Positions 7,326 through 56,000 of a stretch of 64,000 bases of DNA are shown piece after piece. The translations under genes and the position numbers were made by a program. The DNA is from Tubiluchus corallicola (Eukaryota; Animalia; Priapulida). How positions within the stretch are numbered: the first letter of the stretch is position 1; each line of letters opens with the position of its first letter. Below the pieces are notes generated by a model that was given only the letters and a program-made list of their open reading frames with translations, was not told where the DNA came from and ran no database searches. The DNA lies in NCBI GenBank assembly GCA_030141605.1, contig JAQGDQ010000233.1, forward strand, positions 186,001-250,000, written 5' to 3'.

Positions 7326-7662
7326 CGTGAACTTTCGCGTCTTTCCTTGCCTTTTTATTAAAAAAATAATTTAATATTTTTTAGATACTCGCATAATTAC
7401 ATCATTAGATGCCTCATTTCAGTCACCTATAATACTGAAACTATTAGCTGCTATCTGAATTCTTCGAAACTTCTAATGTGTGGCCAATGAAAGCTGATGA
7501 TAGTTGCACGTTCAGAAAGTGAGAAACCTGGAATTCTTTAGTCTTTAGCGAGTTACTACATTTGTTGTGCTGTTTTTTCACCTGTTTCTATTTCCTTAAC
7601 ATTTCGTCACTTTTTCTCCTGTTTCTATTTTCCTTAACATTACCGTTTTTTTTTCTTTTCAG

Positions 7663-16100: not shown

Positions 16101-19100
16101 AAGCCTATTATTGCCCAACATAACTTGCAGAGACTTAAATACATGTAATCACTGGCAGAATAATTTACTTTGGGATACCAGCAGAAACAAAAAAAATATT
16201 GGCTCAAAATAATAAAATTATTGAATAATAGATAGGTTGAACTTAGAAATTTTTGATATGGGATTGCCGAAAAGCTACAGCAAAGTTAGCAACAAAAATG
16301 TTAGATTTGCAAGATGTAACCTGCTCATAAGCAAAAACTATTAAACAAATGAAATCTGGTTGCAATCACAATTATGTTGAAATAGGCTTAAAGCAATAAA
16401 AAAACTTACGGGATTGGTGGAAGATTTAATGTAATGCTGCCCAACACATTTTCACCATATTTCAGGTAACCATAGAAACCAACAGCAATGTACATAATGG
16501 CAACCAATGACATGCCAGTGTTCAAAACTCCAGTTAAACCAGCAAAGTCTTCTGGTGTAGCCATTTTATTTTCTACAGGTAATATCTAAACAACAAAGGC
16601 ATATCATTGATTAATGCAACTCATGCGCATAATGCAAAGGTCAGATTTTGATAGTCATTATAAGTGATTAACTGGACTTATTTAATACAACAATAACATG
16701 GCGATGTGGGTGATGATAGTAATACTAAAAATTAAGGTGTGAAAAACCCAATTTCAAATCTTAGTAAATCATGATAAAATTAAGCAATAAATAATATTAA
16801 AAAATTTAATAATTAACATTAATTTAAACTTGCTGACAGCAAAGTTAATTTAACAATATACAAAAACAATTTATAGTGTAATGAATGTTTTGTCATTCTG
16901 TTAAAACGTATATTCTCATGCAATTAAGTGACTTGCAGACAAATAAGTAAATTTAATTTAATGCGCAAAAGCATTGCAACTAACAAGCTACACATATGGA
17001 AGAGTGTGGCAGGCATTCTCAGCTAATTATCAGTCTTAAATTGTCTTCAGCTGAAATGTAATAATTACACTGACGTGATGAAAAAAATCGACTATTATGG
17101 GGACTTACCACACCAATGCCTTCAAAAGCATATATAGCAGTACCAAAAAACGTAGGCATGTCCTGCCATTGGCCCACTAATGTCCTCGTCCAACTAGGCG
17201 GCAAATCCTATATTAACAAATGACTGCTACCTTACTTGGTGATATTTCAGAAACTAAGCATGTAGTCAAAACAAATAAAACAAGTGATACAGAAAATGAA
17301 AATGTAAACATTACAAAATATGCCATGATACAAACAAAAATTTTGTCATTGTCTATAACCAATATATATACCTAATAAATTACAAGGTATGATATTTGTT
17401 CCTAACCTTTGCGACCAAGGCCCACTTCAATTAATAGATGTGGAAAGCATTTCAAGCTACCTCTATTGCGTCCCAAGGATGGCCCAAAATAGAAACTTTC
17501 TCTGTATGTTAAATGATGTCTTTTAAATCAAAATAACCTCTGCATTACTCCTCAGAGCAATCAGTTATTCCAAAATCTTAAACAGGCAACCGTATTTTCA
17601 GCATTATGTACGTTAATAAGATTATAGTAATACAGCTCTTAAATAAAGAGTGTATACATCTTATTCCTACAAGTCTAAACAGACTTTTCAACTAAATTTA
17701 ACCAGCAATTGTAAGAACCCTAAATACTAACATAGAACTGACAACATACACAAGTAAATGTTATTTTTTGGCAATATATCTTGCATGTTTTGTGCAGATG
17801 TTATTTATTCACTTAACTATTAAAATACTCATACCTGAAAAAGGTCTACGAGTATGATAATAAGACCAGCAAAAGTGAGCAAATTTGCAAAAGCAGAGAA
17901 TGGAGCCATGAACTTCAAATTTCGCACAAAGCACAGCAATATCACAAATGGAAGAAGAAATGCCATAAAAAGCCTATCATTATTGTGATCGTTCACATCC
18001 ATGTCTGGATAGATAACCTGAAGAATACAAGAAGCTCATAAATATCAAATCTGAAAATGTGTGATAGAACATACATACACTAATCCTTACATTAATAAAC
18101 TCTGAGTGCAAAGTCCGAATCACAGCACGTCCTTTTTCACTTCTTCCAAACACACATTTACAATGGCATAATAACATTGGCACAATTTTTATTTACATTT
18201 CACTGTGCAAGGGAATCTATTATCTATCTTTACTGAAATATTCTTTGAACAATAATTTTTCCAATTTCCATTTTTACAAAATTTAAATAAGACTTTCATC
18301 TTAAAATATAGAAGAAACTTTGCAATAATCTGCAAACTTGTTTTTTTTTCAATCTGAGAATGCAGGAATATCTCAAAAAAACCACATTTTTGCTTTCCAT
18401 GCAGAAGGCTTAGTTCAATTCCACGATAGAGTCATACCAAAGACTTAAAAAATCGTTTCTTAACAAAGTATGTGGATTTATCACACTAACAAGTATGTTG
18501 TCATAATCACTGTTAAGGGGTTTAGTTGGTTATCCTAAATCGAAAATATAAACTTTAGAGTTCATGTAATTTATTGGCTTAATAATCGAACAAAAATAAA
18601 GATGACTATTATTATTATTATCTGGAAATAGAGATACACTATATCTAAAAAAACCAAAATTTCTAAAAATAAACACTAACATTAACAACTAAAAATAAAT
18701 TAAAACAAAGAAAAAATGAATTAAAAGGGCATTCATTAGAGTGCAAACCTTTGCCAAAGACTGCCAAATACACTTTAAAAACACAGCCGCTTGGTTAAGA
18801 AGACACCAGTAATTGTTCTGATGTCTTACTTACACTATTAAATAAGCCCATTTAAATGCTGAGCAAAAGCTGTAAACTATAGCTGATGATATCAGAGCAA
18901 TAGATGGTATGCATCATTATACCTTCCAAGTGAGAATTCCCCGAAAAAGAACCTAAAAATAACTTGTCATTGATCATCCTATCAAATGTGTTTAGAAAAA
19001 AGGATTATGGTATCTTGTAGCCCAGTTCTTTCCCTTTCCAAAGAGATATAAAACTCTCTCCAAGACCCCATGAAGTGTGAAACGTGCTTTCTATAATTCT

Positions 19101-26350: not shown

Positions 26351-26462
26351 TCCTAAATTTATAAAATTATCACATGCTTGGTAACATTACAGTACCTGGT
26401 AAAATAGCACCTGGTGAAATGGTTAAACTGTTGCTAAAAAAAGTTGAGAAGTACGGAAAATA

Positions 26463-27555
26463 TAACTCGAAGTCTTAATTTCGAGATTTTTGGTGCAGGA
26501 AAACACAACAAGGAAACCAACTTGTCCAAAAAAGGGAAATTTGTGGACAATAGATTGCAAATCAACATTAAATGCTCTTTCTAATGGTAAGCAAAGTAAA
26601 CTGAGTAGGTAAAAAAAGAAATGCAAAAAAGTGAACATTGATTTGAACCAGGGTCCAAGGAACCTTTCGGAATACAATTAAGCAGTATATGTAATGTTAA
26701 TCTGTCCCAGCACTATTTTGACATTTCATGTCTGTTGGTCAAGTTTGATTTCAAATTCAACAATAATTGTGAATTTACTTTTTCTTTAATAATAATCTTG
26801 GAATTACTCAACTTTTAGTGAATTATTAATGAATTTAATTTACACTTAATAGAAAAACTTATTAGAAATAATAGAGTTAGCTCAAGTACAAGAATTTCAA
26901 CTTGAATGGAAGTAAGGAAAATAGTAGTTATAAATTATAGTTAGTTTAGCAAAAATTTACACTACTTCTAGCATATCATTGATCAACAAAGATATATACT
27001 ATACTGAGATATTAATTTTTCCTTATATTTACTGATAAGATAATAAATTGATTTGTTTTTAGGTGCTTGAGGAATAGAGTTCCAGATGTGTAAAGTTCTA
27101 GGTTCTCCAAATTTGGCTATCTTATCATTCTTATGTTAAAGAAAATTATTACTGATTAATACAGCAATAGACCAATAAATAACTTGAAATCTTAATTTCG
27201 AGATTCTTAATGCAGGAAAACACAATAAGGAAGCCAAACTTGTCCAAAAGGGGAAATTTCTGGACAATAAATTACAAATTGCCAATCAAAATTAAATGCT
27301 CTTTCTCATGGCAAGCAAAACAAACTGAGTAGGTGAAAAAAGAAATCCAAAAAAGTGAACCTCGTTTTGAACCAGAGTCCAGGAACCTTTTGGAATACAA
27401 TTAAGCAGTATATGTAATGCTAATCTGTCCCAGCACTATCTTGACATTTCATGTCTGTTGGTCAAGTTTGATTTCAAATTCAACAATAATTGTGAATTTA
27501 CTTTTTCTTTAATAATAATCTTGGAATTATTCAATTTTCAGTGAATAATTATTGA
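26463..27555. repeat. Direct repeat pair (~370 bp; 26463-26832 and 27180-27555) separated by an L2-like 3' fragment
   Basis: Copies align along their length. The first copy contains a minus-strand B-box-like GGTTCAAATC (SINE-like). The spacer encodes ...LHIWNSIPQ...YKEKLISQY on the minus strand, like an L2 ORF2 C-terminus. Confidence 0.9.
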
Positions 27556-28479: not shown

Positions 28480-29362
28480 CTAGTTTATTGGAAGAAATGC
28501 ACAATGCTTACGTCTATGAGTTGTTGATTAAACCATTTTGCAATCAAGAAAATACGCAGTTTAGTTTAATTTATGGCCTTGCAAGTTAGATAAAAACAAC
28601 TATTTGATTAACTTTAAATAATGACAAAACGAAATATTTTCTTTTGTTGTTAGTTTTTATAAACCTCAATGAGATCTTCACAGTCAAAATTAATTCAAAT
28701 GTGGTCAAAACTTATACTATACATCAATGTAATAGTGGTGCATTTTAAGCTATTTTTCTGGTTATAATCACGGTTCAAAAATAACATTAGGACTTCTGTA
28801 ACTCGGGCATTCAATATAAGGGTCGTCTATGGAACGGAACAATCAAATTTATTCCATTTCCGTAGCCTAACAAAGGAAAAATGCAAAAACTGAATAAATC
28901 TTGCAGACGAGCGCAAGATAAATTAATATAGAAAATACACATTGCAGGCATGATGTTCATATGTTCAAAGACAAGAGAGACTTAATATTTTTGTTGCTCA
29001 TTTATTGTAAAGCAAGGCTAACTGGCTTAATTTCTTTATTATATTTATGTCTCTGTATTCTGTAGCGCTTTGAAACTTCGTCTCTAAAAATACATTCTGT
29101 TTAAATTGAAAAATCATCTTTTGGCTGCTTGAAGCGTTAATTTCGTGTAAAAATATCCGCTGGTCTGCAAATTTGTGTTTATGAAAAAGTGCAATCAGTT
29201 TATCTGCTAATTAGACATTAGTTGAGACTGTCATGTTGTTTCGTTTTGTTTAGTTTAGTTTAGACAGTTGTTGTCCAGCTTGAGCTGATGTCCCGAATGC
29301 CACTGGGCGTGCTTACGCCACAGCGGAGGCGGAGCGATAGACCAATATGCTAGACATCAATT
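28480..29362 (-). repeat. Interspersed repeat, copy 1 of an inverted pair (partner 34450-35610)
   Basis: The reverse complement aligns with 34450-35165 and 35475-35610 at roughly 80% by eye (e.g. tatcgctccgcctccgctgt, tttttacacgaaattaac, tgtgcatttcttcc). Confidence 0.9.
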
Positions 29363-31599: not shown

Positions 31600-31766
31600 T
31601 TCGAGTTTGACGTCGAAGAGCTCTTGCCTTGCAAGAAGTATTTTTCGCCAATTTTAGTCTTTAAAACCGTTTTGTGTTAGGCTTGAAGTTACACAAGTTT
31701 TTTGCTCTTGATTAATTAAAGTAAAACGACCAAAGACCAACAGATATTTCAGCGTGAATATATAAT
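31600..31766 (+). promoter_or_regulatory. Probable VAMP promoter and first exon ending in the split start codon AT|G
   Basis: CpG-rich patch with TGACGTC (~31608), TTTTCGCC (~31641) and an Inr-like TTAGT (~31654). An ATG-free leader ends ataAT|gtatga (31765-31766), which supplies the AT needed by the phase-2 exon at 36902. Confidence 0.55.
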
Positions 31767-34700
31767 GTATGATTTTTACTCACCCGTGTCGTATACGTTA
31801 TATAATAATAATATTAATCTTTATTTAGTCGGCTTAAAATGAGGCTTTCGTCGTCGACGTAAATAACAAACTACACAGTTTGTATGCCATTTGTTTGGGG
31901 TGCCTGATATAATAACGTATGTTTTGATAACCCCTTTCCTTCCATTTTGGTTTATAATTGTTTCCCTTTCCAAGTTTTTTATGACTGGGAAAAAATAATT
32001 TGATTTACCGGTAGTTGGCTAAAATTAAGTAAAAAGAAGTTGCACTGCGAGCTCATCACTATGCTAACTGATGCTGCGATAATGAGAGGCTATCGATTTT
32101 TTTGTAACGTAGTCGTGTTTTAACAGATGATTCTGCCGACTGTTATCTAGCAAGTTCTGTCCAAACTTACTCACTAAGCTCACTCCAACTACTGAATTCA
32201 GGAGACTTATTTTTTTCATTTTCTGGAAATGCTTAGTAAATAACTCCATTTATGCTAGTTTTGATAAAAGTAGAATAAACTACTCTGTTGCTACAGTGGT
32301 TTTATCAGATACCTTAAAATACCTTGAAAGAGCTCTGTTTTATTTTTTGATAAATGAAAAAATTAATATTTAAAATAGTTTATCAATTAATAAACTTATT
32401 AGATTACACCGAAGTGGAGCTCTTTGAGCACTTAAGTGAGATCACTGCTACTGTTTACCCCTCAGATAAGCAACTTACAAACAGGGTAGACGAAATGAAT
32501 GAATGAATTGTTTGGATGCAGTGCAGTTGTAAATTATGTAGCTGTATGTTAATATAAAATTAAAATCTATCATCTGATTACACTGACAATTTGTGCTCAT
32601 TTCAATTTCAGCTTGGGCAAATAAGTTCTGTATCTTGTTTTCTTTTCTGGTCATTTATAGAAACAGAAGTTGAACACAACTCAAGTTTTCTGTGTGTGCT
32701 CAAATGCTTGTCTTTTGAGGGGCGTGATCATGCTTGTGCCCCATTGTGTCTCTATCTTGAATTTAGAAATACCTGTTACTACTCCCTCAACTTGTCAAAA
32801 TCACTCTTGCAAAATGCTAGTTCCTAATGATTTTCAGAGTCACTTGCCAGGGGAGTAAAAATTAACTGTTTGGGAAGCAAATAAGAAAAAAATCCCTCAC
32901 TAATAAATGACTTTTGAAACAAAATTACTAACATTAAAAATAAAATGTAGTTTTTCTTTCAAACTATCAACGTTTCCTTGCTGTATTTTTCGTAGTCTTT
33001 ATCGCCAGTCCAGGGTAACAGAATGGAACACCATTGCCTTATTGGATGTTCTGCAGTATTCTTAGCCAATCACATCACTAGTCGTATAGTGATCCCACGA
33101 TATTTACTCAAGTTGTGTTTAGTCATTGGTCAGCATTCCATGGTTTTGCGGCTACTAAGTACTTACAACCGTGCACATAATATAAAATTTTATACGAAAC
33201 TACTTCAATAATTTCTCATTGTTGAACTTATAGTATAATCTACTACATTTGTATTAAAACTTAGCAGATACATTGTGCCTTTTAGTAATTAAACTAGGAA
33301 TTAGTAAAAATTCCAATATTTTAATTAAATGTAGAAAAACTTTATTCTGCAATTTTTACGGCCTCGTCAATTTTTTCTATTTTGATTTTAATGAACATGC
33401 ATTGTTACTTTACTAAGTTCAACTACCACCAAGTAAGTTCTAAACTAAAACTCCAGAATTACTGACTGGAACCAGTATTTTGGCACGTATAGTGTGTCAC
33501 TTTTTGACCAGTGTAGAATATAATGTCAGAGACGAATAAGTTTAATATACATTACGCACTCCCATGCCTTGGACAAGTACTAGTGCTCATACTATAATTA
33601 CGATAATTATGTTGGCTGATTATGCGACTCGTTTTATAATTTGTTTGTCCCTTCCGGTAAGCCAAACAAGGTGCAGTATTGTAGCAGGCATTTTTATCTA
33701 TAGTACAATATGTCTATATGATCGACTATATTAAATATAATACTATGCCATAGACCCATACAGCAGCATAATTTGCATTAAAGCTCTTAAATAGAAATTG
33801 TGCATTTTTAAAGCTTTAAACTTCCACACATCCGAAATACAGAATTTATTACTCGCAGCAGCACTTACTACAAGATTTCGATGTCATATTGTGTATAATG
33901 GCTATGCTACACAGTTCTGCCTGAATGACATTGTCAGTATGGCATTTGTGCTTTTTTTTGTAACTTAATTGTTGTAATGACATTGTCAGTATGGCATTAG
34001 TACTTTTTTGGTTGTTGTAATTTTACTTTCAGGCTAGGTATACATGTAAAGCTGCAGGTGAAAACAAAAAGTTTAATAAAACTTTTTTTCTTTCCAAACC
34101 TAGTCTAAAAAATTTGTAATACTAGCAGATGAGCTGGGGAAGGATTCAAAGCAAAAATGCTAAGCTAACACATTAGCGCATGATAAATGTATCTGAGCAC
34201 TTACAAGCAAAATGGCTTACAAATAAAATGGCTCTTAACATGGTTGTTTTTATGCATATTAGGGTGCACAAAAGCGATGAAAAGATAACATAAAAATAGT
34301 AAAAACTCTCATCACACATAAGTGTTTTACCTTAAGTATGTGAAACAGAAATTTTGAGTCGATTATGTAGAGTTATTTGAGTTATTCAATTACTGACAGT
34401 TTTTATATACATTTGAATAAGAGCAGCCTTTCCCAGACGTTGTTGTGTCAATTGGCGTCAAACACATTGGTATATCGCTCCGCCTCCGCTGTAACGTAAG
34501 CACACTCAGCGGCATTCAAGACAACAGCTCACGCTGGACACCAACTGTGTAAACTAAACTAGACAACATGACAGTCACAGTTAATGTCCAATCAGCAGAT
34601 AAGCTGATTGCACTTTTCATAAATATAAATTTGCAGAGCAGCAGCTATTTTTACACGAAATTAACACTTCAAGTAACCAAAAAATGACTTACTTTTCAAT

Positions 34701-37700
34701 TTAAGCAGAATGTAGAGACATAAGTATAATAAAGAAACTAAGCCAGTTAGCATTGCTTTACAATAAATGGGCAACAAAATATATTTATGAAAGTCTCTTT
34801 TGCCTTTGAATATATGAACACATCATATCTGCAATGTAGTTTTTCTAATTTTAATTAATCATGTTATCGTTCTAAAGCTTTTATCCACTTTTTGCATTTT
34901 TTAAACTGCTTGCTAGACTACAGAAATGGAATAAATTTGATTATTTGATTCCATAAACAATATTGCCCATGTTAGGTAAGTCATAAGTCCCAATGGCATC
35001 TCTTAATTGTGATTATAGCCAGGAAAATAGCATAAAATTTACTATTTCAGGATACAAATTTTACGTTGATATATAACATAAATTTTGACCACATTTGGAT
35101 TAATTTGGACAGTGAAGATCTTATTGAGCTTTATAAAAACTGACAAGAAAAGAAAACATTTTGTCTGAATATGAATTTCTATGAGTGTGCTTGCTTACCA
35201 CATAATCCTGACAGTTGTCATGTATTCCCGTAGATGAGTTCAACTCTGCCGCTGGTCTTTAACTATTGCTAACTGGTCATTCCTACAACCTGCGCAAACC
35301 TAGTTGCTGTAATTTTTACATGCTGGTTATCCTTGAATCATTTATACCTGCCAACTCGGGCTTCAATATAAAGTTATAAATTTCATTGTTACTTCTGTTC
35401 AAGTCGGCCATTTTACATTTGCGATCATTAAAGCAGCATCATATGATTGGCCTAATTAATCTCGTTAAGTTAATTTGTATTTTTTAATGTTAATACTTGT
35501 CTTTATCTAGCTTGCAAGGTCGTACATTAAACTTAACTGCATATTTTTATTAATAACAAAGTCAGTACCTCATAGACGCAAGCGCTGTGCATTTCTTCCT
35601 ATAAAAAACTAATTTATACTATATATTTCCACTACTTCACCTACAATATTAATCGACAATACAGACAATTGACAACCTATAATAAGATTTAAAACCAGGC
35701 TGATTTCTCTCCTCTCCTGCACATTTATGAACATTTGAGCATTTTTCGTACGAATGTAACATATACCGACAATACCAAGTTAGAGCTGTTGTCCCAAAAG
35801 ACGAGGTAATGAACCGGTTCTGTGGGCATGTGAAAAATAGGCACACTGATTGGACAGTCAGCAGAGCTTGACTGAGAATGATTGACATTTTGTTTGACTT
35901 CAATTAGGCGACCGATTCTGTTAATCGTGAGTCTAATAAACAGCACCCACAAACAAAGGTCTCAATGAGGTAAATTGAAAGGTATAAGTTATGCCTTCAT
36001 TGGTTGACCCCTGTCCCCTCTAGGAATGAAAAAATTAATATTGGATGGGTCAGGGAGACAAATGCTTCTTCCAGTGTAAATGACAGTTAGCTTGTAGTAC
36101 ATATTAAATGAAAGGTATTGAAAAGACACATTTAATGGCGTTGTTGTCGTTGTTAGGCTGGGACCGGTTAAGGATTCACTTAACTGGTTAACCGATTAAT
36201 GAGATCTAGACATCATCGGAGACACTCTGTAATTTGCCGGCTAGATCATCGGAGAATCAAATAAACAAGCAATTTACAAAACATATCAAGTGAAGCTTTA
36301 GAGGAATAAGTTCAAATAAGTCGAAACTTTTATTCATAGAAAAAATTTCAAATCGCTAGTTTTTAGCTTGGGTTGCTAAAATTTACTCATGCCAAATGCA
36401 AACTAATTAAAGAAATTTTGATGAGCAAATTTGTGAAAACACCAAGTTAGCCATTAAAACTTTGCTGTTTAAGCAACATTCTTTCTTCCTGAGTTACCTG
36501 TGTAGAATTTTAGAAGTTAAAGATAATTTTCATTTGGTGACTTATTTTCACCTGATATTCAGCTTTTAAATATTTACTAATTTAAATTTAGATTTGAGAA
36601 TATTTTCAAGAACAATCTTGCATTTGAGAATATTTTTAATCAAAGTAACATCCTGAGAAGTGAGCCTTTTGTTATAGGGTGCGAGCAGTCTGTGTGTAAT
36701 GATTTTCTTTATTGAAATCATAGTACATGTAATTATGCATTGGAAAATTTGTTGCTCAAAAGATGAAAGTATGTCCATGATTTTACGTATATACGATATC
36801 TTGCTCAGAAAAACTTAGCAAAAGTGTCAGTTAGTCAGGACATGCAACTTCACTAGAAAACAAAGTGATATTAATTTAATTGTTATTTTCCATTACAACA
36901 GGGCTGACTCACAAGGCAATAAGAGACTTCAGCAGACACAAGCTCAGGTTGATGAGGTATGACAAATGCATAGTGACATAGTATTGATCATATGTAATTA
37001 AATTTTCGTTGCAGTGCAAAAGTTTACTGTACAATAGTGCTCTTATTTTTAGTTTGACTTATTTTAGGATGAAGAGTAATGGTCACTCTATTACTTTGCT
37101 ACTTTGTTCTTAATGACTGAGAACGACAATAACTATTTTGCCTAACAAGGCTACAGTTTTTATTTTGTAACATACAGTTGATTTTGTGCTGAAAGTTGTT
37201 CATGTCAGACATTTTTCAAATTTTAAGGTTACTGGAATTATGCGAGTGAATATTGAAAAAGTCATTGAGCGTGATGAGAAACTTTCTAGTTTGGACGAAA
37301 GAGCAGGTATTATAATTAGGCTCTAAATGTAAGAGTTGATCTACTGGAGCAGGTGCAGTTGTCGTAAAATCTTTAGATGTGCTAACACCTTGTCTGATGT
37401 AGAACAGTGTCCTATGTGAAACGTCATATATCAAGATCATTACTTTGTGTAGTGATCAAGACTAATGATCAAGAATTAGTTTCACATTAATATGACACTA
37501 CCATTTTTCTGCTTCTACCTCTCTTTACCCTACATGTGGTCTGTTTTTTTTTTTGCATGTTTTTCTGTCAAACTAGGTGGTTGATATAATGCGTGTTAAT
37601 GTGGAAAAAGTTCTTGAACGAGATGACAAGCTTGGACAATTGGATGAAAGAGCAGGTAGAACTAACCAACCTTTGGTTACTATACCTATGATTTGTAGTT

Positions 37701-40700
37701 TATGTTTATCTTTCATATACCAGACTATGTGGATATGCCCTTGTTAAGTTAACCTTATTTGTTATGCACTGAGTATGACATCATCTGCAATTTGTACCCA
37801 ATTCATGGCTGTTTTTAGTTAGTTAACATATGTTTGCTTGCTTGTTTGTTTGTTCACTATTTTTGTTTGCTAACATTGTTTTTAATGAGCTGAAATAAAC
37901 TAACGAGGCTTGTGAAAGAACTTATTTTGTGTCTATTTACTGTGATGTTTAAAAAGCTACTAACATATAGGTTTGCCTCAATTATGCACATGGAAATGTC
38001 TATATTTCTAGTTCCTGGTACTAACAGTAATGTCTAAGTGTCATAAGAAGATTAATTGGTAACAGTCATTTTCTGTTAAAGCCATTGAAAACTGTATTTG
38101 CATTGAAATTTGCATTAATAATCTTTTTTTAAGTTGAAAATGTTTAAATTATCCCTGAAAGAACAACAATTTAAAACCATAGCTCAAAATGACCCACCAT
38201 TTAAAATGTTTTAAGTTCAAATATCACTTTAAACATAGTTTTATTGATAACAGAGATTACAATATGGCTTGAGCAGACAGTTTTACAACTGATAGATTTT
38301 CTTGGCAATGGTATGTGACACTTTAAAGAGTGCAGACAATAAATGAACAGTTGGAGCATTATAGTACAACAAGTGCAAATATTGTTTTCTTAAGATTGAT
38401 AGCCTTCATTACAGTTCTCTTGCTCAGGAACTTCTGCATGGTCCCTCGCTTCCCCACTCATGAGATGAGAATATTTTCACCATGGGATTATTTTAAAAAA
38501 ATCAATGCTTAAACATTAAAAAATGCAGTGAAACTAGGATTGGCCTCACAAACTTGTGAAAAATACTTCGTCTAGAAACACACCAACATTTCAGCATACA
38601 ATTGATAATTATTTAGGTGGTAGGCCATACAGTTTGTAGACATGAATATATATACTTATTAATCAACACACAAATTTTAGAAAATTTCTCTGCGTAGAAT
38701 TGATATAGAATTGCCATGAAGTCAATGATGTTCAGGATGTCATTTCCATAAATGCATGCAGATGGCAAGTTAGTTTTCATGATAAGCAGTGTGTTGCTAT
38801 TTCCAGTTGTGTTATTATAATTAATGGCAGCTACCTGCACTTTTTGTTTATATATAATAGTGTTTAAATTTGCTTGGGTTATGAGAAGAGTATGTGCGCT
38901 ACAGGTAGTATCATAAATATTTGCCAAGTACATGCATTACAATGCCAAAACAAGTAAGAATGTGGCAAAGCTGTCTGTAAGGTACAAGCAAATCAGTAAT
39001 TTATTACTCTGCTCAGAATCTTCAAAAATTTTTTTAATAATATGGCAACGTGAGGCCTCCAAAATTGTAAGGCTCTGAGCAACAACCCAGTGTTCCTATG
39101 TCTTAAAGCAGCCTTGAAGGCATTTTTAATGGTAAGTTCAAATCACACTGTCCACGCTAAGAAAACCTTCCACTTACATAAAGCTTTAAAAATTTGGCTT
39201 TAGATTTTATACCACTTGTATACTGCCTTTTTGCATACTGGACTTGCGTTGGCAGTACGGCTGTATAAAACATGTAAATTTAAACTCCCACAATGACCGT
39301 GTTAGACGTTTTTTCGTTAGTGAGTGGTGCACAGTGGAGGGTGAGTCAACGACATTTTACCAATATTTGAATCATTTTGAATAATTAATAATTTTCTTTC
39401 CTAGTTACATAAGTCATTCGAGCAGGTAAGCAAAATGCTAAGTAATATAACTTTGCATGGAAAGTTTTTTGGGACATGGTTTAACATTTCCTTCGCCAGG
39501 TTTACGTTGTGCGTATATGACGTCATATAACAGTGCGGTCGGCACAGTGTCACATGAAACTTAAATCGGAAACAAACAAAAAATCCTTTCAACTCGAGCA
39601 CGATATACGCATAAAATTGCTAGAAAGTAGTATAATTGTCAGGCAATTTTTCTGAAACCTATTTTAAGTACCCCTTTTCTTGTCCTTTAAGATGGCCTTG
39701 TTCTTGCCAGAAGTCTGATTCTTTTGGTTTTTCAGGGTTACATAAATAGATTAAAGACATGCACACTCAGCTGGGCAACTTCTCCTGTTTCTCCATTGGG
39801 CATTGTGTAAAAAATAAGCATTGTACCGCATTAGAAGAGGATGGATAACTACACATCCCAATTTTGAAGATAACTTCATGAAATCTTGTGTTAGCCCATC
39901 AGTATTGGAACTTGAAATTTCAGTTTGTCATATTAAGCGGTTTTAGCAATAAATTAAAATAAATTGTGGTCTAAAAATCATCTGGCTTTCTTTAAATGTA
40001 GAGCCTTATTGCCTAGTGATTTCAATTAAATTCATTGCTGACATGTAACCAATTTCTCTATTTTAATACAGCACATACTTGTGTTTTCAGATGCATTACA
40101 AGCAGGAGCTCAACAGTTTGAAGCAAGTGCAGGAAAACTGAAAAGGAAGTACTGGTGGAAAAATTGTAAGGTGAGCGAATTCAATTTTTGGATACTGTAG
40201 TTAATTAAATTATAATGACCTGTAACAAGATGCTTTAATGCAGTCTGGCATCATCATCAGTGTATTTTCACAAGGCAGCTAGAAGTATATATTAAACTAT
40301 ATCTCGTGAATACTGCTATCCTGTTAATAGGCCAAAATTAACCACTAAATGGATAATGCTAGTCGCATGATGACAATTGACAACCAAAAAAAATTTAGCT
40401 CTATTTTTTGGGCTGTTATGCTATGAATTACTAGATTTATATAGTGGTTATATAGAGCCTGTTAGCAAGATGGTAGTGCTTATTAGATTATAATATAATA
40501 TTTATTTCTAACTGGCTTATAATTGTTGGATTATTAAGGCATGGATTCCCCAACTACAAATCAAATCTGTAGTAAGGGTGTTACATCTCTAGACTATGCA
40601 GATAAAACTCAAACTCAACAAACGTCTGTATCATCTATGTCAACAATGGCATGAGTTGCGTACTGAGGTCGCTTCTTGCCTGTAAAACTGATTTTTGTAT

Positions 40701-43700
40701 GATATGAAAGAAAAAGAAAATTGTATTGTTATGAAACCTCATTTTTAACAAAAGTGTAGCAAGTCCTAATTAGAAATTTTAGTAGCTTACGCCAGCAGTT
40801 GACAAATAAAAAAGTTTTTATTGTCTTTATTTTTGCAGTTATTGTGCCATTTCATAAATGGACAAATTCTATCAAAATTAGAATGCACACAGTCTATAAT
40901 ATCAGGCCAGAGTATTGTGTACAATATCGTATGCCAAATTTAATTTCTGAGTGCCTGATAATTGATAACCATAGATTGCATGCTTCTTTAGACTAAATTA
41001 CCTTCTGAGTTTGCCTGAGAATTCTAGTATTCCTAATTTCTCTTAACTCTCAGTGTAATCAAGTTTCTTTTTGACATGTGCACATGTAATGTAGGTGTAT
41101 TGTTTCAGCAAGGTTGATTTATGACATAAATTTTGCTATCACGTGCTATAATATTTATAATGCCTAGTGTGTACACTCAGTTATCAGTATTTGTGCACTC
41201 ATGAGTACGCTGTTTGTGCGACATGTGCACAAGTTTTCACAACTTCAGTGTTCGTACCTCATTGAGGATGGTGATAATTAAGTGATAATTACCATTGATT
41301 CATACATCATTGTCTATATAGTAGTAGACTTGGTGGACTTGTGTAACGATGGTTTTGCTTTGTGATAATGGGCGGGTGGTTCATAACATGGAGAGGGGGC
41401 AGATAATGCAAAAAGAAATGTCAAAAACGAGTTTTATAATGAGGCGTGACAGCAGTTCGTTATTTGATAATAATTCTGTGACATATTTGCATGAAGCTAG
41501 CATTAATGAAAAAGATACTTCTCTTCGAAAAGCCTCGGTAAGTCAAAATACACAATAATAGACTACATATAAAAGTAATTTTTTACATCAGGGATGTCTT
41601 ATTAAACACATTTTGCTCATTTAAATTATTTTTCTTTTATAAATATTGCACATTTACTGCAGCCTGGTAAGCCAACCAGTTATGTGATCTTACCTAGATA
41701 ATTCTTCAGCTGATTTTCTGCGCCATATTGACTAGGAAGTTGACTAGGTGACTAAAAATTCACCCAAGTGATGGTTTGAATGGGAAAGAAAAGATATGTG
41801 GAGATTAGTCAGAGCAGTAGTAAGGGAACAAGAGAGAATGCAGCAAATGATTTGGCAAGGAAAGGGAGCACAACAAAATGCGGACAGAAAGGAAAAGAAT
41901 GTACGAGAGAGGAATATGGTTGTAAGACTGTGAGTGATTGGAAAGTAGCCCTACTGATTTAAAGTTTTTTAATTTACCACATGTTAACTTGCACATAGAA
42001 TATTGGCTCTCCTACTAACTACTTAAAATCGATGAGCACAAACTCACAAAGAGCACGGTAAAACAAGTTATGTAGAAATAATAAGTACTAAGTATTTTAT
42101 TTTAATATTTTAAGTGTTTTTGAGTTTTTGTTAGCTGTTAGCAGTCATGTAAGGAACAGTTAACAACTGGAAAGTTTAAAAACCATTAAACTGAGTTTCT
42201 CAATGTTTAAATAAAAACTTATATCAAATGATTATGAGGTTATACAACTACAATTAAACTGCAGATCTCGTTGCATGGCACCGATAAGCTGCATTAATCT
42301 ATGTAATGTTTATTCAGTATTTGTGTTTACATTACCGCGTTCCATTTTCTTAATAGTATACTCATAAACAAGTTAGATAGGCTTTGGAAGAATAACTTGG
42401 TCATAGTGCATCTGATTAGGGATACCTTGATTTTACTTAGAATACACAGGCATACACTTTTACTTGTTTAATACTCTGTATACACAGACACATTTTAAAC
42501 TATACTGTTTTAATAATAACTACTCAAAAGGCACATAGCTGCATGTTTACTATTTTGTTATATTATAAAATCATTTGTTATAACTGAAAGAAATCCATTC
42601 CGTTTGCTGGACTTTTAGTCCAAAAACGCGAATTACAATAAATTCTGCACACACAGGCAAAACATGCAATTAAATACATTTGTTATGGCTGTAGTACCGA
42701 TGTAACTCATACAGTACATTTAACTAGAGCTTAAATAAGGTGCTGATTGTTCTTCGTTACATCATTAGATGATTTAGAGAGAGAAATTTGTTCATGAAAT
42801 CAGGATATAGCATACTTTTTCATTTCTAGGCACTTTTAGACAAAATGTATTTGGCCTGGTTTCTACACCCGTTGAATTATAATAAAAAATCTTTCAATCT
42901 ACATAGTAAGTCAATGTCAAATGCATAATATTAATTGCATTTTTGAATAAATGTTACCATTGTAAAAAAACTGTAATGCCCTTATTTTGACTTAATGAGC
43001 AAGTGCACATTTGGAGAATAATGGCTTCTTCATAGTTTCAGTTCAGTAATTTTTGTGACCTTTTATACTTTCAAAGTAGCTAAGATGACCTTTACATCCT
43101 TGTACTACATGAAGCATGATTAATTTTTATAGATTGTTATGTATATTTTCGTCATTTATTCTGCTACTCTAAATATCTATTGTAGACATTGAGCCTCCAT
43201 CTATTGGCTATTTAGGATGTTTTGGTACCTCATTTAATGCTAATGTTACTGATGTTTTTTCTGGCAATCTGGTTAAATGCCCTACTCATCTTTGCCTTCT
43301 GATTTTAATTTTGTGCTCCAAAAGTTCCTTTTTGCAGCTGCCCATTTGAAATAACATACAGCCATCTTACTTACAAGATTTTTTTAGCAAACTTCTGTGG
43401 AATACATCTATTTCTGCTTCATGCATTGCAGTTAAACCCCACATTTCACTGTTGTGCTTGAAGATGCTTATATATTGAAGAGGTCACAGCCTTGCTTGAG
43501 GGATAGTTTTATGCCATATTATGTATATAGAATATTAAATATTAATTTTCACTTTTTGCAGATGATTGCCATATTGGTAGGAGTTGTCGTCGTGATAGTT
43601 GTCATCATTATCGGTAAGAATTTTTAGTATTTCTCTATTCCTGTGTACTATCTTGCGTCACTATGTTGCTTCAGTGCTTATGCTTCTCTGAGGCTAATCA

Positions 43701-44812
43701 CCAGCTTCCCACAGCTTTTGTTAATACATGGATGGGTGAGGTTTGTGGTATTTTGTAGATGCCACTTTTTGCTGATTTGCACAAAAAATATGCTATACCA
43801 TAGTAAATGTGTCAGGTATGAATTTCAATCCCAAATTACTCCATCTATGCACTGTGTGTGTGTTTCAGCCATATCTCTTACTGTTTCTATGGAGCTATGT
43901 TTCTGCTTTTCTGTGTAGTGACCCTGACGCTAGGTCACTGACTCTAGGTTACTAATCGTTTAGCAGTAACACAAGAGCGACAGTTGCTCAAAATTGTTAT
44001 TGTAGTTTTAAAATTATCTTAACTTTGCATGTAAATGTAAAATGGCAAAAACCTTAAAAATGATCAAGATGTTATTTATTAGAAAATAAGTTCACTTGAG
44101 TTTTATAACTGATGCAAATGGTTAAGAAAGAAGGTTGAGAAATTGTAAATGAAGAAGGGTGTAATTTTTGACATACTCCTTCGTGTGAACTCTAGTAGAT
44201 TGGCTACTAAGACTAGGGCAAATGAGCAAAGGTTCAATAATTATATCCTTATGATCAACCAAAACATCCAGTGCATGTTAATGTTTTTGCTGATTGTGAT
44301 AACAAAGCATCTAGCATCTCCATGTTTTTTCATGGGAAAGCAAAGCGGGCAATAATCAAATTTATTTTTGCAATGCTTTTCTTTTTTGTTGCTTATTCGC
44401 ATAATAATTCCCATAGCACAAACGACATAAAAGGATACGCTAACTGTGGTAACCACCTTGGCTAGCTGAGGAACAGAAGCCGGATGCCAGATGCTCAAAA
44501 ATGTTGGGCTTCCACTGTCCAGTGCCATAATCTTTGATATCAACACTCATTGATAATATAAAAGTTCTATTTCTCACTTAAACATCCAGGACGTGGGCAC
44601 CAGATGCTAGACCCTGGGTGATTTGGTGCATCTTAGGCTTAAATTGGATATAGGTTTGCTAGATTTCAAGATGCTTCCTGTTCTCCCTGAAGCAAATATG
44701 CTGTTAAGTCTAATCATTATGAGTTTCATGCATTTCTTTGATAGGTGTGTTTCTTCCTTATTATTATATTTTGTTTTTAGTGTGGACTGTAACTAAGCAA
44801 AAGGAGGAGTAA
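31765..44812 (+). CDS. VAMP: Synaptobrevin / VAMP1-2-3-type R-SNARE, 99 aa, with an alternative exon 3a/3b
   Basis: Exons: 31765-31766 (AT, inferred), 36902-36956 ([19 protein letters not shown]), 37228-37306 or 37577-37655, 40091-40170 ([27 protein letters not shown]), 43562-43613 ([19 protein letters not shown]), 44781-44812 ([10 protein letters not shown]). All GT-AG with consistent phases; 300 nt. Confidence 0.93.
34450..35610 (+). repeat. Interspersed repeat, copy 2 of the inverted pair, with ~310 bp of extra sequence at ~35165-35475
   Basis: Aligns to the reverse complement of 28480-29362 on both sides of the extra segment. Confidence 0.88.
37228..37306 (+). CDS. VAMP: VAMP alternative exon 3a ([26 protein letters not shown])
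   Basis: ttttaag|GTT...GCAG|gtatta; 79 nt, phase 0 to 1, open frame, paralogous to exon 3b. Confidence 0.85.
37577..37655 (+). CDS. VAMP: VAMP alternative exon 3b ([26 protein letters not shown])
   Basis: Long pyrimidine tract, aactag|GTG...GCAG|gtagaa; 79 nt, phase 0 to 1; closest to the canonical synaptobrevin sequence. Confidence 0.93.
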
Positions 44813-50063: not shown

Positions 50064-53000
50064 TTACAGTTCAGTACTCATCCTATTCGTAAGATCATTA
50101 ATTCGCGTAGCATTGCACTGTCTGCACAAGACATGATCGTCTAGGGGATAGCAACCACGTCCATCTGCCTGAGAAGACAGCAGTGTGCCACAGTCCTGTA
50201 ACAAAATTTTCATTTGACAAAAGAAAATTACAGTTTGTTACGTTATTAAATGTACTTGACATCACATGTCATACATTTGGAGAAAGACACCAAATGTGTT
50301 TGCATAAGCTGTATCACAAATTGTCCGCTCATTATGGTGTTACAACAGGTAACAGCATGACAAGACTGGCATTGATCTAGATTCATTTAAAAGTAAAGCT
50401 TTCGTAAATAACTGATAGGTTGGAAGTTTTTCACACAGGTAAAATAGTCGTATATTAGACTGCACACTCCCACCACAAAGGAATGGTCCTGCACTAATGT
50501 ATAACTCAAAATAACCATGTTTATAAACTAAAAGGCTAAGCTAAGTCAAATCAAATTAAACAAAAGTTCTAATAAATTAGACTATAATAAGCAGTATAAT
50601 TTATGGTGAATGCATTGAAAAACACGGAATGCATTTTACCTCACAACGATAACAATCCACATGGAAGCTCTTATCCAAGGCCACAATTCTAACTGTTTCC
50701 TCTTGTCCACTTTCAGGCATTATAGGCTGATGGCACATTGCACAGCGTGGAGCAAACTTCCTACATAACAAACCAAATTCTCCAATAGTTTCAAACTATG
50801 TATTACATAAATTGTGCTAGATTGCAGTTCTGCATTACGTAACTATGCAAAGAGGCAGTTTAACATGACAAAAAATGCTGCATAGTGTATATACACAGCA
50901 AAATACCTTAAGTAACGAATTCGGTCACAGTTAAGAAAATCTCTGAACAAGAAATCTTTTCGGGGAATAAAGTTGTTGTTTCATGTCATTGATGTCACCC
51001 TTGTCCTGGTTTCATTCTTCTTATAAATAAAGCAAGTCTAGTTTTGCATTTTTCAAGCAGCATTTATTTGCTGTACAAATTCCTTAGATTCTTAGAACAA
51101 ATTCATACCTGATCAAAAAGATGGTTAATTGACCATCTCATCATAACCTAATGTACTGAAATTTCATCAGGACATGTTTAACAGTTTTAAGACAATGTTC
51201 ATAAGAATATAACATTTTATTGTCACTGGTATTCAAGCAATCAGTGGCATACCACATCAATATGATATGAATGACGGCAAGATGAAAGACAGGAATGACT
51301 GGCAAATATACAAGTTATAAATGTCTGAAATAGCCATAATATAAGCAGCAAACAGACTTGTCAACAGTATCAATATGTCACTGTCCCCCATCGATTCATG
51401 ATAAAAGCAACGTTAGCCTCATAAAATATTTTTTTATACAGTTGCATTGTAAGCTGGACTCCAACATCAAGTGGCAGGGCCTCATGCTTGAACAGTTGTT
51501 ATGGAATTTGAATCTCAATAAATATCTTCCAGGCAGAGATCCTGAATTGGCAGGTGTCTTAATAACGCTGAGATGCATATATATCCTCCCTTAACAATAG
51601 AAATCATCAGTAGCAATATCCCTAAAGTCATCTATCCATTTACCAACCAGCGTCTAGCCTCCGTGCCCTTACCTTTCCTAGTTTCCTAATAACCACTCTG
51701 CTTGGTTATACAGCAAAACCATCACAATGGAATTAACGAGTGTCTTGCCTTATCATTTGTTAATGACAAACTTACAAAATTCTAACTGTTTATCAAATTC
51801 TAAAATGCTTACGTCCGTTTTATTTTTCTACTGGATGGGAAATGACTTTTGAAAAAAATACGTTGAAAAAAAATTTGAAGTTATTATTACTTACAGCAAT
51901 TAGACCTGATCACATCTGCATCATAAATCATTGTATAAGTCTGTTTAATTAGTTGCACAGAAAAACGGATAATGTATTTCACTAAATGCTTTAATCGAGT
52001 GCTCACATAATCACAACATTTCTGCAAGCGAAATCAATAAGCTAAATGCACATCCAAAAATTTTTGCTGATATACAATCAAATCTAGTTAAGATCTTACA
52101 TAAAATTTTCCAACTAGAGTTTTGATACCTATGAAAGTCTTCTATACAATGTATTTGATTAGTGGCATCTACAGTAAAGGGGATTCCGTCTAAACTCTTT
52201 CCACACACAACACACGTGAAACAGCTGGGATGGTATGGCTTGCCAGTGGCCCTCAAGATTCTGTCCATTATTGGCTTAGAACACACTGAGCACTTCTCCA
52301 ATGTATTCTGCAATAAAGATAATCTTTTCTAATATAAGATAATCATCGCAATGCAAAAGACAGTCTGGAAAACATGCAAGGAAGACAAACAAATATAAGT
52401 AATCAATAGGCTTTCTGTTTAGCTAATGACTTTGCGCAATAAGACTTTCATATTGACACTGTAGCCATTAATAGTAAATGTGTAACCACTAAATTGATTT
52501 CAATAAATAAAATCTACTATTTAAAATCACTAAGACGAACAGCATAAGTTTCACATCATGTTACAATATGCATTATAAAATTTATTCAACGCACAACTCA
52601 AACATATTCAGTGTGAATGAGTGATACTTTTCCAATAGCCCATATTCGAAAATCAAATAATAGTCCACTCACAAAATAATCCTCCTCACAGTATGGTTTT
52701 CCTTCCACTGCATAAAATGGAACACCTCTAAGTTGCCGTGCTGTAAGTATATAAAATTATGAACAATTCATGCTTTGGTGCTATTGCACGTACACATTCT
52801 AGGCAATTGCATCTTTTTTCACTTGAATTTAATATGTTAAGCTGCAGTATATGGATTATTTGAATTTTGCCATGCTGTATATGCTTTAGTAAGAAAAATA
52901 TACTTTCTCTTGCTTCTTGTGCTATTAGTAACATTATATAACACGCTTTACAAAAAATTGATCTAACTCATAAAATCGAATTATGAACAAGCATAACTCT

Positions 53001-56000
53001 TAAAACATATGAAAGATAAGCTTTAACTTAAAAATGTGCGTTAGTCTGACATGTAAGCAGTAATCAAGAGGCTAATAAAATAATAAATGAATTATATAAA
53101 ATAAAAGCATTTCACTTTGCCACTTCAGCGTCTCATATCAAAGGATTATCCAAGACACTGAGCTAATTTCCGGTCCCATTACAACAGCAGGTATAAAAGA
53201 GCACCCTTCTTAATGAGCATTTAATCACAGTGTGCAAAGTGTGAACTGAAAACAAAACAAAATAATTTCCTTGTAACTGTATGACACACATTTTACTATA
53301 GTTTAATAAGAGTACCAACGCACCACATATGCAACAAACAAAGCATTCAATGTGAAACATTTGATCCATTGCAGAACAGCCACCATCTCCAACTATCTGT
53401 TTCTGACATTTGGCACAAGAACCTGAAAAAAACCAATATAAGCCTACAGTCACATTATTTTATGAAACTGTGGCTTACTGTCAACTATTTTTATATGCAA
53501 CATCACTAAAGCAAATTATAAACAAGTGTTAGAATAAGTAGCACATCAATCCATATTTCCTTTATATACTATATGCAACTATACTACTGTATGCTACTAT
53601 GTGTAACTGCATTACAGGGTTGTTATTGAAACGAAAATTTCAAATCAATATTGCTAGCCATAAAGATGAAAACTGATTTTAAAACAGAAAGTGTCTTTTG
53701 AAAACTGATCAGCTACAACAAAAAATGAGAATTTTAAGAAAATTGTAGGCATTTTAAAAACGCTACATGACCTGTGTCAAAGCAAATTAGTACGGCAGCA
53801 CAAAGTAAACTGGTGCAACTTTGCAACTGTAAGCACTTAAATGATAAAATTGCAAATCTATGCAGTGACAGCATAAAAACACAAATTTTTAAGGAAACAA
53901 ATCAAATTACTGAGGCCACATTACAAGGACATAAAAGATGCTACCCACAGTTAAAACGTTTTTTATTTGATTGGGAAAGGATGTCGTCTCCTGTATCTGT
54001 TGACTGACTGTACAGTATACATAACAAGCATGCGAAGACGTGGTTGACGATTTTCAGTACCATCTACAATTATTTAAGCAAGACAATAAGACTCTCTTTT
54101 ATTAATATAAATTATGTAGACTCACATAGAATTAAATATAATATTAAGGAACTTTAGTTATTTTTTGGCAAGATATTTCTAATAACTATATGTTATTCTG
54201 TATTTTTTATGACAATAATCAGCCAAAAATTCAGACACCAATACATAGTAATTATCGAAAAACCCAAACCGAATTCGGTACCTTAAAGCAAAAGCCAAGT
54301 CTTTTGGGAAGTCAAGTTTATTTTAATATGTATGAAAAATGTTAGAAAATTTCAGCAGTAAAACTGTGATAAGCGCCTTGTGTAATCAACAAAATCAATT
54401 TAAAGCCATGATCACTTCAAGCTTGGGCGCGCTCATTTTGAATAAAAAATGATGTCATTTTGCTAACAGTGCAATATAAAAACACTTATCGCAGGCACTT
54501 GAGCAAACTTTTTTGCAGCAGCAGTTATTATTATCAACTATAAAGAATCCTAAACATTAAACAAGAGATTATTAATGCTGTTTTTGCTTTTTGATGAATT
54601 CCATTGCCCACTATGTAATGTAAACCAGTTACTGATGATAATATAATCTCCAATTAGGTTAGTTGAAGTCGACAAAGCAACAAAATAATTATTTTAACAA
54701 GCCAAAACTGAACTCTATAAGCTGAGTAGACCGCCTGGCACTTTTTGTGTGCTCACAGGCTCACAGACTATCATGCTTATCTGTAATTATAATATGTACA
54801 GTACTTATACATTTTAAGGTATAAACCTCTGGATTAAAGCTATGCTAGCACTTAAAAAGTTAATGCTAATTTTTCTGACGACTAATATATACATAAACAC
54901 AGTTAAACACAAAGATTTAATCAGGTAGTGTTACAGAAACACAGTGTTTACATAAACACAGTTAGAAAGATTTAGTCAGCTCAGAATTTCTGAGCGAACT
55001 GAAGAAGCTTTGTTACACGTGCCTTCGTGCTGTCCACCAGCTTACATCATTTTTTTTCAAATATGCCTGCACCGAGGTTCATTTGGTGGGAGATAAGAAT
55101 GATTAAAATTTCTTTTGCCTTTGTAAGCACAGCATTTTATGTGCCTATGTTACTTGGTAATTTCAATATTTTAAAACTTTTACGAACATTATTTGGCAAT
55201 TTGACCCAGATCGAGACAGGTTTGTCATGCTCATGCACCACATACTAATTTATCACATATTTCAGAAAGAATTTTCTGAAAACATACAAGTGTGTTTATT
55301 TGGACTCAGAATACCAAATTACATTATTATTTAGTAAAGTTCTATTTAGGAACAACAACAAAAACAACATTAAAGATATTGATTATTTACGCTTCTTATT
55401 TTTCAGAGCAGTATTGTACGTAAAATCTCGCCAACTTGCTGACAGTAATTTTGCTGAGAGTGAATTTTGCTGAGAAACAGCTCGCACTTACTGTGGGAGA
55501 GTAACTCGGAGCAAATTTTGCTCTCTAGCCCGAACATGCTTGCGAGTTACTTGGGAGTAACTTGGTGAGAAACTCGCAGCTGTGAATGCGTTGTTAGCCA
55601 TACCTCGAGGAAAGCTGGCAAATACATCCGGGTTGGCACGAGAATCCATACTCTGCACAAGCAAATTGGTCAAGGCATCTACTTCGGCCTCTGGCTTGCC
55701 TCCCTTTGGCATACTCGGAGACTGTGGTGGAGGAGAGCTTGCATAAGTAAGCTGCTGCTGTTGCTGAGAAGGAGATACATAAGGCTGTGGGTAACCCCTT
55801 TTTTTCACTGAATAAAAACAAAATTGATTAACAATTAGCCATTAAGTGTCATTATTAATTAAGCACTTTATGCACTTTCAGACTTCACAACTACGTTTTC
55901 AGTTCATTACAGTATGTCCTCATTTAACAACTGCCCTTTCTGACAGACAATGAAATTTTGTCAGCAAATTTCCTCACTTAGTAACGTATTAGAAGCTGGA

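What the first reader, a model, noticed from the sequence alone, without database searches (positions are those of the whole stretch)
37228..37655. Tandem-duplicated, mutually exclusive exons swap the core SNARE helix of synaptobrevin/VAMP
Seen: two 79-nt exons 270 nt apart, both phase 0-1 with intact AG/GT, encode [26 protein letters not shown] and [26 protein letters not shown]. They differ at 7 of 26 residues, and 9 of the 19 identical residues use different codons, so the duplication is old and both copies look constrained at protein level. Including both gives GGT-GGT-TGA immediately; skipping both reaches TGA within exon 4; only exactly one gives a protein. Known: SNAP-25a/b uses this strategy for a Q-SNARE, whereas VAMP1/2/3 and fly nSyb/Syb diversify by gene duplication. 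Inference: one gene makes two R-SNARE isoforms (e.g. neuronal vs constitutive). I do not know of a described case in VAMP, but cannot verify novelty.
Basis: partly seen in the sequence, partly recalled or inferred. Interest (0 to 1): 0.88.

Follow-up and report, generated by a model that had tools for sequence, protein, structure and literature searches.

The report
Swappable sorting-signal exon in synaptobrevin
An invertebrate's vesicle-fusion gene (synaptobrevin) carries two side-by-side copies of one 79-base exon, and only a message with exactly one copy stays in frame, so the gene likely makes two proteins with the same fusion core but a different recycling signal, as annotated gene models of arthropods and a lamp shell also suggest.

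Summary
Observation confirmed in every detail. Both exons are under purifying selection (dN/dS about 0.13), so 3a has not been dead since the duplication. No RNA covering exon 3 was found: use of 3a is inferred. It is not unique. The scan found this before on other DNA (two arthropod findings). RefSeq isoforms swap the same block in Artemia (two versions) and Lingula (three), and 13 arthropod gene models carry both blocks in tandem, Gly44 first and Asp44 second, as here. New here: the gene is not arthropod-type. All eight SNARE layer residues are identical, and the seven differences are off-layer. They include V43T and D44G at the AP180/CALM sorting site, so the swap changes the helix surface, not the core. 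Four ACTAAC (STAR-type) motifs follow 3b and a TGCATG (RBFOX-type) precedes it, suggesting a tissue switch. One ancient duplication versus independent ones is unresolved (AU p=0.20). No paper describing it was found in the library searched.

The parts
31765..31766 (+). End of the inferred first exon; supplies AT of a split start codon
   Evidence: AAT|GTATGA donor; AT + G of exon 2 gives a 300-nt open frame. Inferred; no RNA covers it.
36902..36956 (+). Exon 2 (55 nt), start of the R-SNARE motif
37228..37306 (+). Exon 3a (79 nt), VAMP2-equivalent residues 42-67, Thr43/Gly44 version
   Evidence: unchanged in run X1
37307..37576 (+). 270-nt intron between the copies; long enough to be spliced, so no steric exclusion is expected
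   Evidence: branch-point-like words 84-264 nt before the 3b acceptor
37554..37559 (+). TGCATG (RBFOX-type motif) in the pyrimidine tract of the 3b acceptor
   Evidence: in 1 of 5 other-plus-this internal and last acceptors listed (6 examined); chance about 0.016 per 40 nt; post hoc
37577..37655 (+). Exon 3b (79 nt), Val43/Asp44 version, closer to the family consensus
   Evidence: 24 of 26 identical to Lingula X1/X2/X10
37661..38025 (+). Cluster of four ACTAAC (37661, 37899, 37959, 38020) plus one more CTAAC (37870): STAR-family-type binding motifs
   Evidence: densest in the window on either strand; 0 of 5000 dinucleotide shuffles reach 4
40091..40170 (+). Exon 4 (80 nt), second half of the SNARE motif and juxtamembrane linker
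   Evidence: joined to exon 5 in run X2
43562..43613 (+). Exon 5 (52 nt), transmembrane helix; single copy
44781..44812 (+). Coding part of the last exon with stop

Best explanation
The synaptobrevin gene holds two tandem copies of one 79-nt exon, and it likely splices in one or the other to make two 99-residue v-SNAREs with an identical fusion core and a different helix surface. Shown: only one-exon messages stay in frame, both copies are under purifying selection, all eight layer residues (-4 to +3, including the zero-layer Arg) are identical, and the seven differences are off-layer. Inferred: messages with both or neither exon would be removed by nonsense-mediated decay (stops lie 203 and 81 nt before the last junction). 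The choice would be set by tissue-specific proteins binding the ACTAAC cluster after 3b (STAR family) and the TGCATG before it (RBFOX family). The main functional difference is predicted to be in endocytic sorting by AP180/CALM, because 3a changes Val43 to Thr and Asp44 to Gly beside the invariant Met46.
For: Frame logic. pN 0.19 versus pS 0.67, Fisher p=0.0007; neutral decay of 3a kept splice sites, frame, layers and at most 7 changes in 2.7% of 4000 simulations at distance 0.15, 0.1% at 0.25 and 0 of 4000 at 0.35 and 0.5. Seven differences missing eight layer positions: p=0.048 (numbering; layers -4 and +4 from PMC2819690 passages, the rest by heptad spacing). Artemia: 5 of 8 isoforms Asp44-type, 3 of 8 Gly44-type, same flanks. 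Lingula: three versions among 7 isoforms seen. Val43 and Met46 are needed for VAMP2 endocytosis by CALM (PMC3267021, PMC4199285 passages); Met46 and Asp44 are vesicle-targeting determinants (PMC5649181 section 10). NMD backs up 14 of 19 non-3n exon clusters in C. elegans, and ASD-2 and RBFOX switch such clusters (PMC4165533 passages). ASD-2 binds CUAAC repeats (PMC3469465 passages). Motif cluster.
Against: 3a is the faster-evolving copy (branch 0.28 versus 0.11), has Ile50 found in 0 of 63 distinct blocks from other animals, and has an AAG acceptor. The lack of change in 3a in run X1 is weak (10 differences all outside it, p about 0.08; the next intronic contig also has 0 differences in 167 nt). 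Among 80 metagenome loci no pair had the same flanks with a different block. The motif finding is post hoc and one ACTAAC abuts the 3b donor, so direction is unclear. Val-to-Thr is a mild change, and in VAMP8 mutating the residue at that position alone only weakened CALM binding. A reference title states that fly synaptobrevins are functionally interchangeable (title only).
Confidence: 0.62

Rival explanations
1. Both exons are used one at a time, but the two proteins are functionally near-equivalent; the pair is kept by selection on each copy without a real division of labour.
For: All layer residues identical and several changes conservative (V/I, L/I, D/E). Isoform sets seen for molluscs, nemerteans, Priapulus and echinoderms show a single block, so many animals may manage with one. 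Fly paralogues called interchangeable (reference title only).
Against: Gly44-first, Asp44-second holds in 13 of 13 double-block arthropod models and in the window. A non-random motif cluster sits next to 3b.
Confidence: 0.2
2. Exon 3a was functional for a long time but is now silent or barely used; the gene makes only the 3b protein.
For: 3a is more diverged and carries residues rare in the family; AAG acceptor.
Against: Intact frame and splice sites; dN/dS 0.13; 0 of 10 differences in run X1 fall in 3a (weak); regulatory-type motifs around 3b.
Confidence: 0.13
3. The two exons are ordinary cassette exons, with both-in or both-out splicing used to tune synaptobrevin level through decay, rather than a strict either-or switch.
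For: The 270-nt intron allows the two exons to be joined; both unproductive forms meet the usual decay distance.
Against: This would not need protein-level selection on both copies; all 15 RefSeq isoforms of Artemia and Lingula seen carry exactly one block.
Confidence: 0.04
4. Assembly artefact: two haplotypes or paralogues were merged.
For: No contig of run X1 bridges 3a into 3b (it ends at 37551).
Against: Copies are only 71% identical with near-saturated silent sites, flanking introns do not align, X1 links 3a to almost the whole intervening intron, and the same layout recurs in other animals.
Confidence: 0.01

Closest known systems
SNAP-25 exons 5a/5b (vertebrates; PMC2581893, passages)
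   Same: Tandem duplication of one exon in an exocytic SNARE, either-or splicing, few residue differences.
   Different: Qbc-SNARE rather than the vesicle R-SNARE; arose in bony fish and is absent from Drosophila per that paper; function tested in mice, whereas nothing is tested here.
Arthropod synaptobrevin 79-nt exon pair (Artemia RefSeq isoforms XP_065560706-14; double-block models in 11 species; earlier scan findings)
   Same: Same 26-residue block and boundaries at protein level; Gly44 copy first, Asp44 copy second.
   Different: Arthropod copies mostly differ at 2-4 residues (Frankliniella and Ephemera more), here 7; both window copies share Glu65, arthropod ones do not; window exon 4 lacks the arthropod EQQ signature. 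Homology not resolved.
Lingula anatina synaptobrevin, three alternative blocks (XP_013393957-63 and X10)
   Same: Same block swapped with identical flanks; window 3b is 24 of 26 identical to one version.
   Different: Three versions, none with Gly44; Lingula also has alternative transmembrane exons, which the window gene lacks.
C. elegans let-2 exons 9/10, egl-15 5B/5A, unc-32 7a/7b (PMC4165533, PMC3585155, PMC3469465; passages)
   Same: Either-or exon pairs switched by STAR (ASD-2) and RBFOX proteins through intronic CUAAC and UGCAUG; let-2 has the STAR site downstream of the downstream exon, as here.
   Different: Different genes; binding shown by experiment there, only motifs seen here.
C. 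elegans unc-64 syntaxin 8a/8b and VAMP1 C-terminal splice variants (PMC4946901, PMC3123573; passages)
   Same: One SNARE gene giving neuronal and non-neuronal or differently targeted isoforms by splicing.
   Different: Those change the membrane anchor or C-terminus, not the SNARE motif.

Membership tests
Synaptobrevin/VAMP1-3 (brevin R-SNARE) | R-SNARE motif with zero-layer Arg | tested here: met
   Pfam PF00957 on exons 3a, 3b, 4; Arg at VAMP2 position 56 in both copies
Synaptobrevin/VAMP1-3 (brevin R-SNARE) | Short N-terminus without longin domain and a C-terminal transmembrane helix | tested here: met
   99-aa model; hydrophobic exon 5 joined to exon 4 in run X2; the start codon itself is inferred
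Homologous mutually exclusive exons (SNAP-25 5a/5b type) | Tandem homologous exons of equal length and phase in one gene | tested here: met
Homologous mutually exclusive exons (SNAP-25 5a/5b type) | Both copies constrained at protein level | tested here: met
   dN/dS about 0.13, Fisher p=0.0007
Homologous mutually exclusive exons (SNAP-25 5a/5b type) | Each exon seen alone in spliced RNA of this organism | tested here: inconclusive
   No RNA holder listed; run X2 has no laid contig on exons 2-3 and a filter may drop them
Homologous mutually exclusive exons (SNAP-25 5a/5b type) | Tissue- or stage-regulated choice with distinct function | not testable with these tools
   Only motifs
Arthropod Gly44/Asp44 synaptobrevin exon pair (same duplication event) | 3a groups with arthropod first exons and not with 3b | tested here: inconclusive
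   26-column tree puts 3a with arthropod first exons at 90/92, unstarred; a 3a+3b clade is not rejected, p-AU 0.204
Arthropod Gly44/Asp44 synaptobrevin exon pair (same duplication event) | Gly44 copy upstream of Asp44 copy | tested here: met
   Window; 13 of 13 double-block arthropod models
Steric-type or docking-site-type exclusion | Intron too short to splice, or competing base-paired selector sequences | tested here: not met
   270-nt intron; no convincing shared docking partner among 20 short inverted repeats in 36900-38600 (a single-sequence search, weak)

The most novel reading that the evidence does not exclude
The Gly44/Asp44 exon pair is one ancient switch that predates arthropods, possibly dating to the protostome ancestor: a single synaptobrevin gene chose between two endocytic sorting signals under STAR and RBFOX control, and the later neuronal and general synaptobrevin genes of flies are this switch frozen into paralogues.
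Probability: 0.3. Interest if true: 0.7.

Novelty: new member of a known kind. Interest (0 to 1): 0.45.

Why it matters
If both exons are used, many invertebrates diversify their vesicle SNARE by splicing rather than by gene duplication, and do so at the surface that sorting adaptors read. That gives a clean test of what separates a synaptic from a general-purpose synaptobrevin: same gene, same core, a few surface residues. A non-arthropod example with the same Gly-first, Asp-second order makes the age of the switch testable. It also flags a recurring annotation error, since gene predictors fuse both exons into one protein.

Tried and rejected
No whole genome is held, so paralogues could not be counted. 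Run search: no RNA holder listed; this is not evidence either way. Run X2 (RNA is a guess; 12 other letters and 16 gap letters over about 140 nt of the last exon) shows the exon 4-5 and 5-6 joints but nothing on exons 2-3 at 85% or 80% likeness; a filter can drop such contigs, and 3b is also missing from run X1. A homologue search with the 3a reading frame found nothing. The metagenome scan kept the best 80 of 342 loci, ranked against a one-block protein; 0 of 80 held two blocks, which that ranking biases, and none gave a usable exon pair. Trees of the 59 constant columns did not place the gene in a phylum (three duplicate rows left out). Two atlas look-ups gave no usable taxon. A second transmembrane exon was sought between exon 4 and the 3' end and not found. 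Docking-site structure: nothing convincing. Koo et al. 2011 was not held, so the direction of the Asp44 effect was not read at source. No structure or complex prediction was run. Literature searches aimed at the claim listed no paper on duplicated SNARE-motif exons in synaptobrevin; I judged from listings and opening abstracts, and most subscription journals, including the main SNARE-evolution surveys I recall, are not in the library. No supplements were opened.

Full report
Observation. The two exons are as described: 79 nt each, AG/GT, 270 nt apart, 7 of 26 residues different, 9 of 19 shared residues with different codons, 56 of 79 nt identical. Including both gives Gly-Gly-stop and skipping both stops in exon 4. 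With a split start codon at 31765-31766 and exons at 36902, 40091, 43562 and 44781, either exon gives a 300-nt frame and a 99-residue synaptobrevin. There is no third copy and no second transmembrane exon. The exon 4-5 and 5-6 joints are seen in a contig of run X2, which is probably RNA of a close relative.

Is 3a alive? Between the copies pN is 0.19 and pS 0.67 (Fisher p=0.0007; corrected dN/dS about 0.13, with silent sites near saturation). In a rough simulation starting from 3b, neutral decay kept splice sites, frame, layer residues and at most 7 changes in 2.7%, 0.1%, 0 and 0 of 4000 runs at distances 0.15, 0.25, 0.35 and 0.5. So 3a has been constrained for most of its history. A contig of run X1 spanning 37179-37551 has 8 substitutions and 2 indels, all in the intron after 3a, but this is weak (p about 0.08). 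Against: 3a is the longer branch and has Ile50, seen in 0 of 63 distinct blocks from other animals. No RNA covering exons 2-3 was available, so recent silencing is not excluded.

What differs. In VAMP2 numbering the exon covers residues 42-67. Val42 is layer -4 and Leu70 layer +4 (PMC2819690, passages); heptad spacing gives 46, 49, 53, 56, 60, 63 and 67 between them (my inference). All eight are identical in 3a and 3b; the differences are at 43, 44, 50, 54, 58, 61 and 62 (p=0.048 by chance). The swap therefore changes the surface, not the core. Val43 and Met46 are needed for VAMP2 endocytosis through CALM (PMC3267021 and PMC4199285, passages), and Met46 and Asp44 are named as vesicle-targeting determinants (PMC5649181, section 10 part 1). 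Exon 3a has Thr43 and Gly44. I infer that sorting is the likeliest difference. It is untested, and a single change at the position-43 equivalent of VAMP8 only weakened binding.

How exclusion would work. The intron is long enough to splice, and no docking-type pairing stood out. The exon is 3n+1, and the premature stops lie 203 and 81 nt before the last junction. In C. elegans decay backs up 14 of 19 non-3n clusters (PMC4165533, passages). The 400 nt after 3b hold four ACTAAC, against 0 or 1 after the five other donors. This is the densest cluster in the window on either strand, the most over-represented hexamer of that stretch (Poisson 8e-6, about 0.03 after correcting for 4096 words), and 0 of 5000 shuffles reach it. 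A TGCATG lies 18-23 nt before the 3b acceptor, in 1 of 6 acceptors. The STAR protein ASD-2 binds CUAAC repeats (PMC3469465, passages) and promotes the downstream exon of let-2 from the downstream intron; RBFOX proteins act through UGCAUG on egl-15 and unc-32 (PMC4165533, PMC3585155, passages). I picked these motifs from recall and after looking, so they are a lead. They do not say which tissue gets which exon.

Other animals. Two homologue searches gave 166 listed proteins (48 of 60 candidates; best 120 of 4511). Eight of them, all arthropod, contain the block twice (six by pattern, two more), and cluster look-ups added five: 13 models from 11 species, all with Gly44 in the first block and Asp44 in the second. 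These are gene models that fuse both exons with filler. Artemia RefSeq isoforms carry one block each with the same flanks: 5 of 8 Asp-type, 3 of 8 Gly-type. Lingula has three versions among the 7 isoforms seen. These are predicted isoforms; I did not see their reads. The isoforms seen for Lineus, Tubulanus, Liolophura, Priapulus, Amphiura, Haliotis, Mytilus, Dreissena, Aplysia and other molluscs show one block only, but these sets are partial.

Whose gene, and one origin or several? Window exon 4 matches spiralian and Priapulus proteins at 23-26 of 27 residues and arthropod ones at 16-22, so it is not arthropod-type. The neighbouring receptor's named relatives were arthropods in 3 of 3 clusters with a species name, among the top 10 looked up. 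A non-arthropod protostome is my best guess; the phylum is unresolved. In a 26-column tree 3a joins the arthropod first exons (90/92, unstarred) and 3b sits near Lingula (75/81), and the Gly-Asp order matches. But both window copies share Glu65, which arthropod copies lack, and a 3a+3b clade is not rejected (p-AU 0.204); nor is a clade of the three Lingula copies (0.105). One old duplication and repeated duplications both remain open.

Known and new. SNAP-25 5a/5b is the model case (PMC2581893, passages). Splice variants of VAMP1 and unc-64 change the C-terminal anchor (PMC3123573, PMC4946901, passages). Six searches aimed at duplicated SNARE-motif exons in synaptobrevin listed no such paper, but the library lacks most subscription journals. 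Two earlier findings of this scan describe the arthropod pair; I confirmed its presence in arthropod proteins but did not test the link to fly Syb and nSyb. PMC4290612 and PMC11666571 were searched for passages and gave only a reference title.

Verdict. A real, constrained exon pair that is probably spliced either-or: a new member of a known kind, already implicit in database isoforms. The added value is the non-arthropod example, the mapping to the sorting surface and the candidate splicing switch. Interest 0.45.

Noticed in passing
Stored proteins P0170/P0171, P0175/P0064, P0183/P0096, P0188/P0187, P0080/P0201, P0004/P0003, P0373/P0065: A second either-or cassette in protostome synaptobrevin: two versions of the transmembrane exon in Lingula, a chiton, Haliotis, Mytilus, Aplysia, Artemia and a spider, plus several alternative last exons. 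The window gene has one transmembrane exon (43562-43613).
   Followed up: partly
Lingula isoforms P0170, P0049, P0168: Three alternative versions of the exon-3 block in one brachiopod gene.
   Followed up: partly
P0001, P0052, P0065, P0067, P0073, P0082, P0099, P0110 and five more: Gene predictors fuse both exons with 2-37 filler residues, giving false double-SNARE proteins in public databases.
   Followed up: yes
window 28629-29362 and 34450-35164: Two copies of a repeat of about 700 nt in opposite orientation (84-92% in five arms) on either side of the inferred first exon; the second lies in a high-depth repeat in run X1.
   Followed up: no
window 26457-26832 and 27174-27555: Direct duplication of about 380 nt at 720-nt spacing, 82-95% identical.
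   Followed up: no
window 7638-9917 (+): Rhodopsin-family receptor; named relatives are arthropod cholecystokinin-receptor-like proteins.
   Followed up: partly
window 13166-18035 (-), probably extending to about 23700: Amino-acid transporter gene (Pfam Aa_trans).
   Followed up: no
window 50604-53459 (-), probably extending to about 61250: Three-LIM-domain gene with proline-rich upstream exons, zyxin/LPP-like by recall.
   Followed up: no
window 2900-5070: Broken LINE-type reverse transcriptase fragments.
   Followed up: no
Stored proteins P0008-P0048: A divergent mite synaptobrevin paralogue has Thr43 and Glu65 like window 3a; convergence or shared history not tested.
   Followed up: no
window 37027-37347: Run X1 shows no difference over about 320 nt around exon 3a, while neighbouring intron stretches differ at 2-4%; may mark regulatory sequence or a shared haplotype.
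   Followed up: partly
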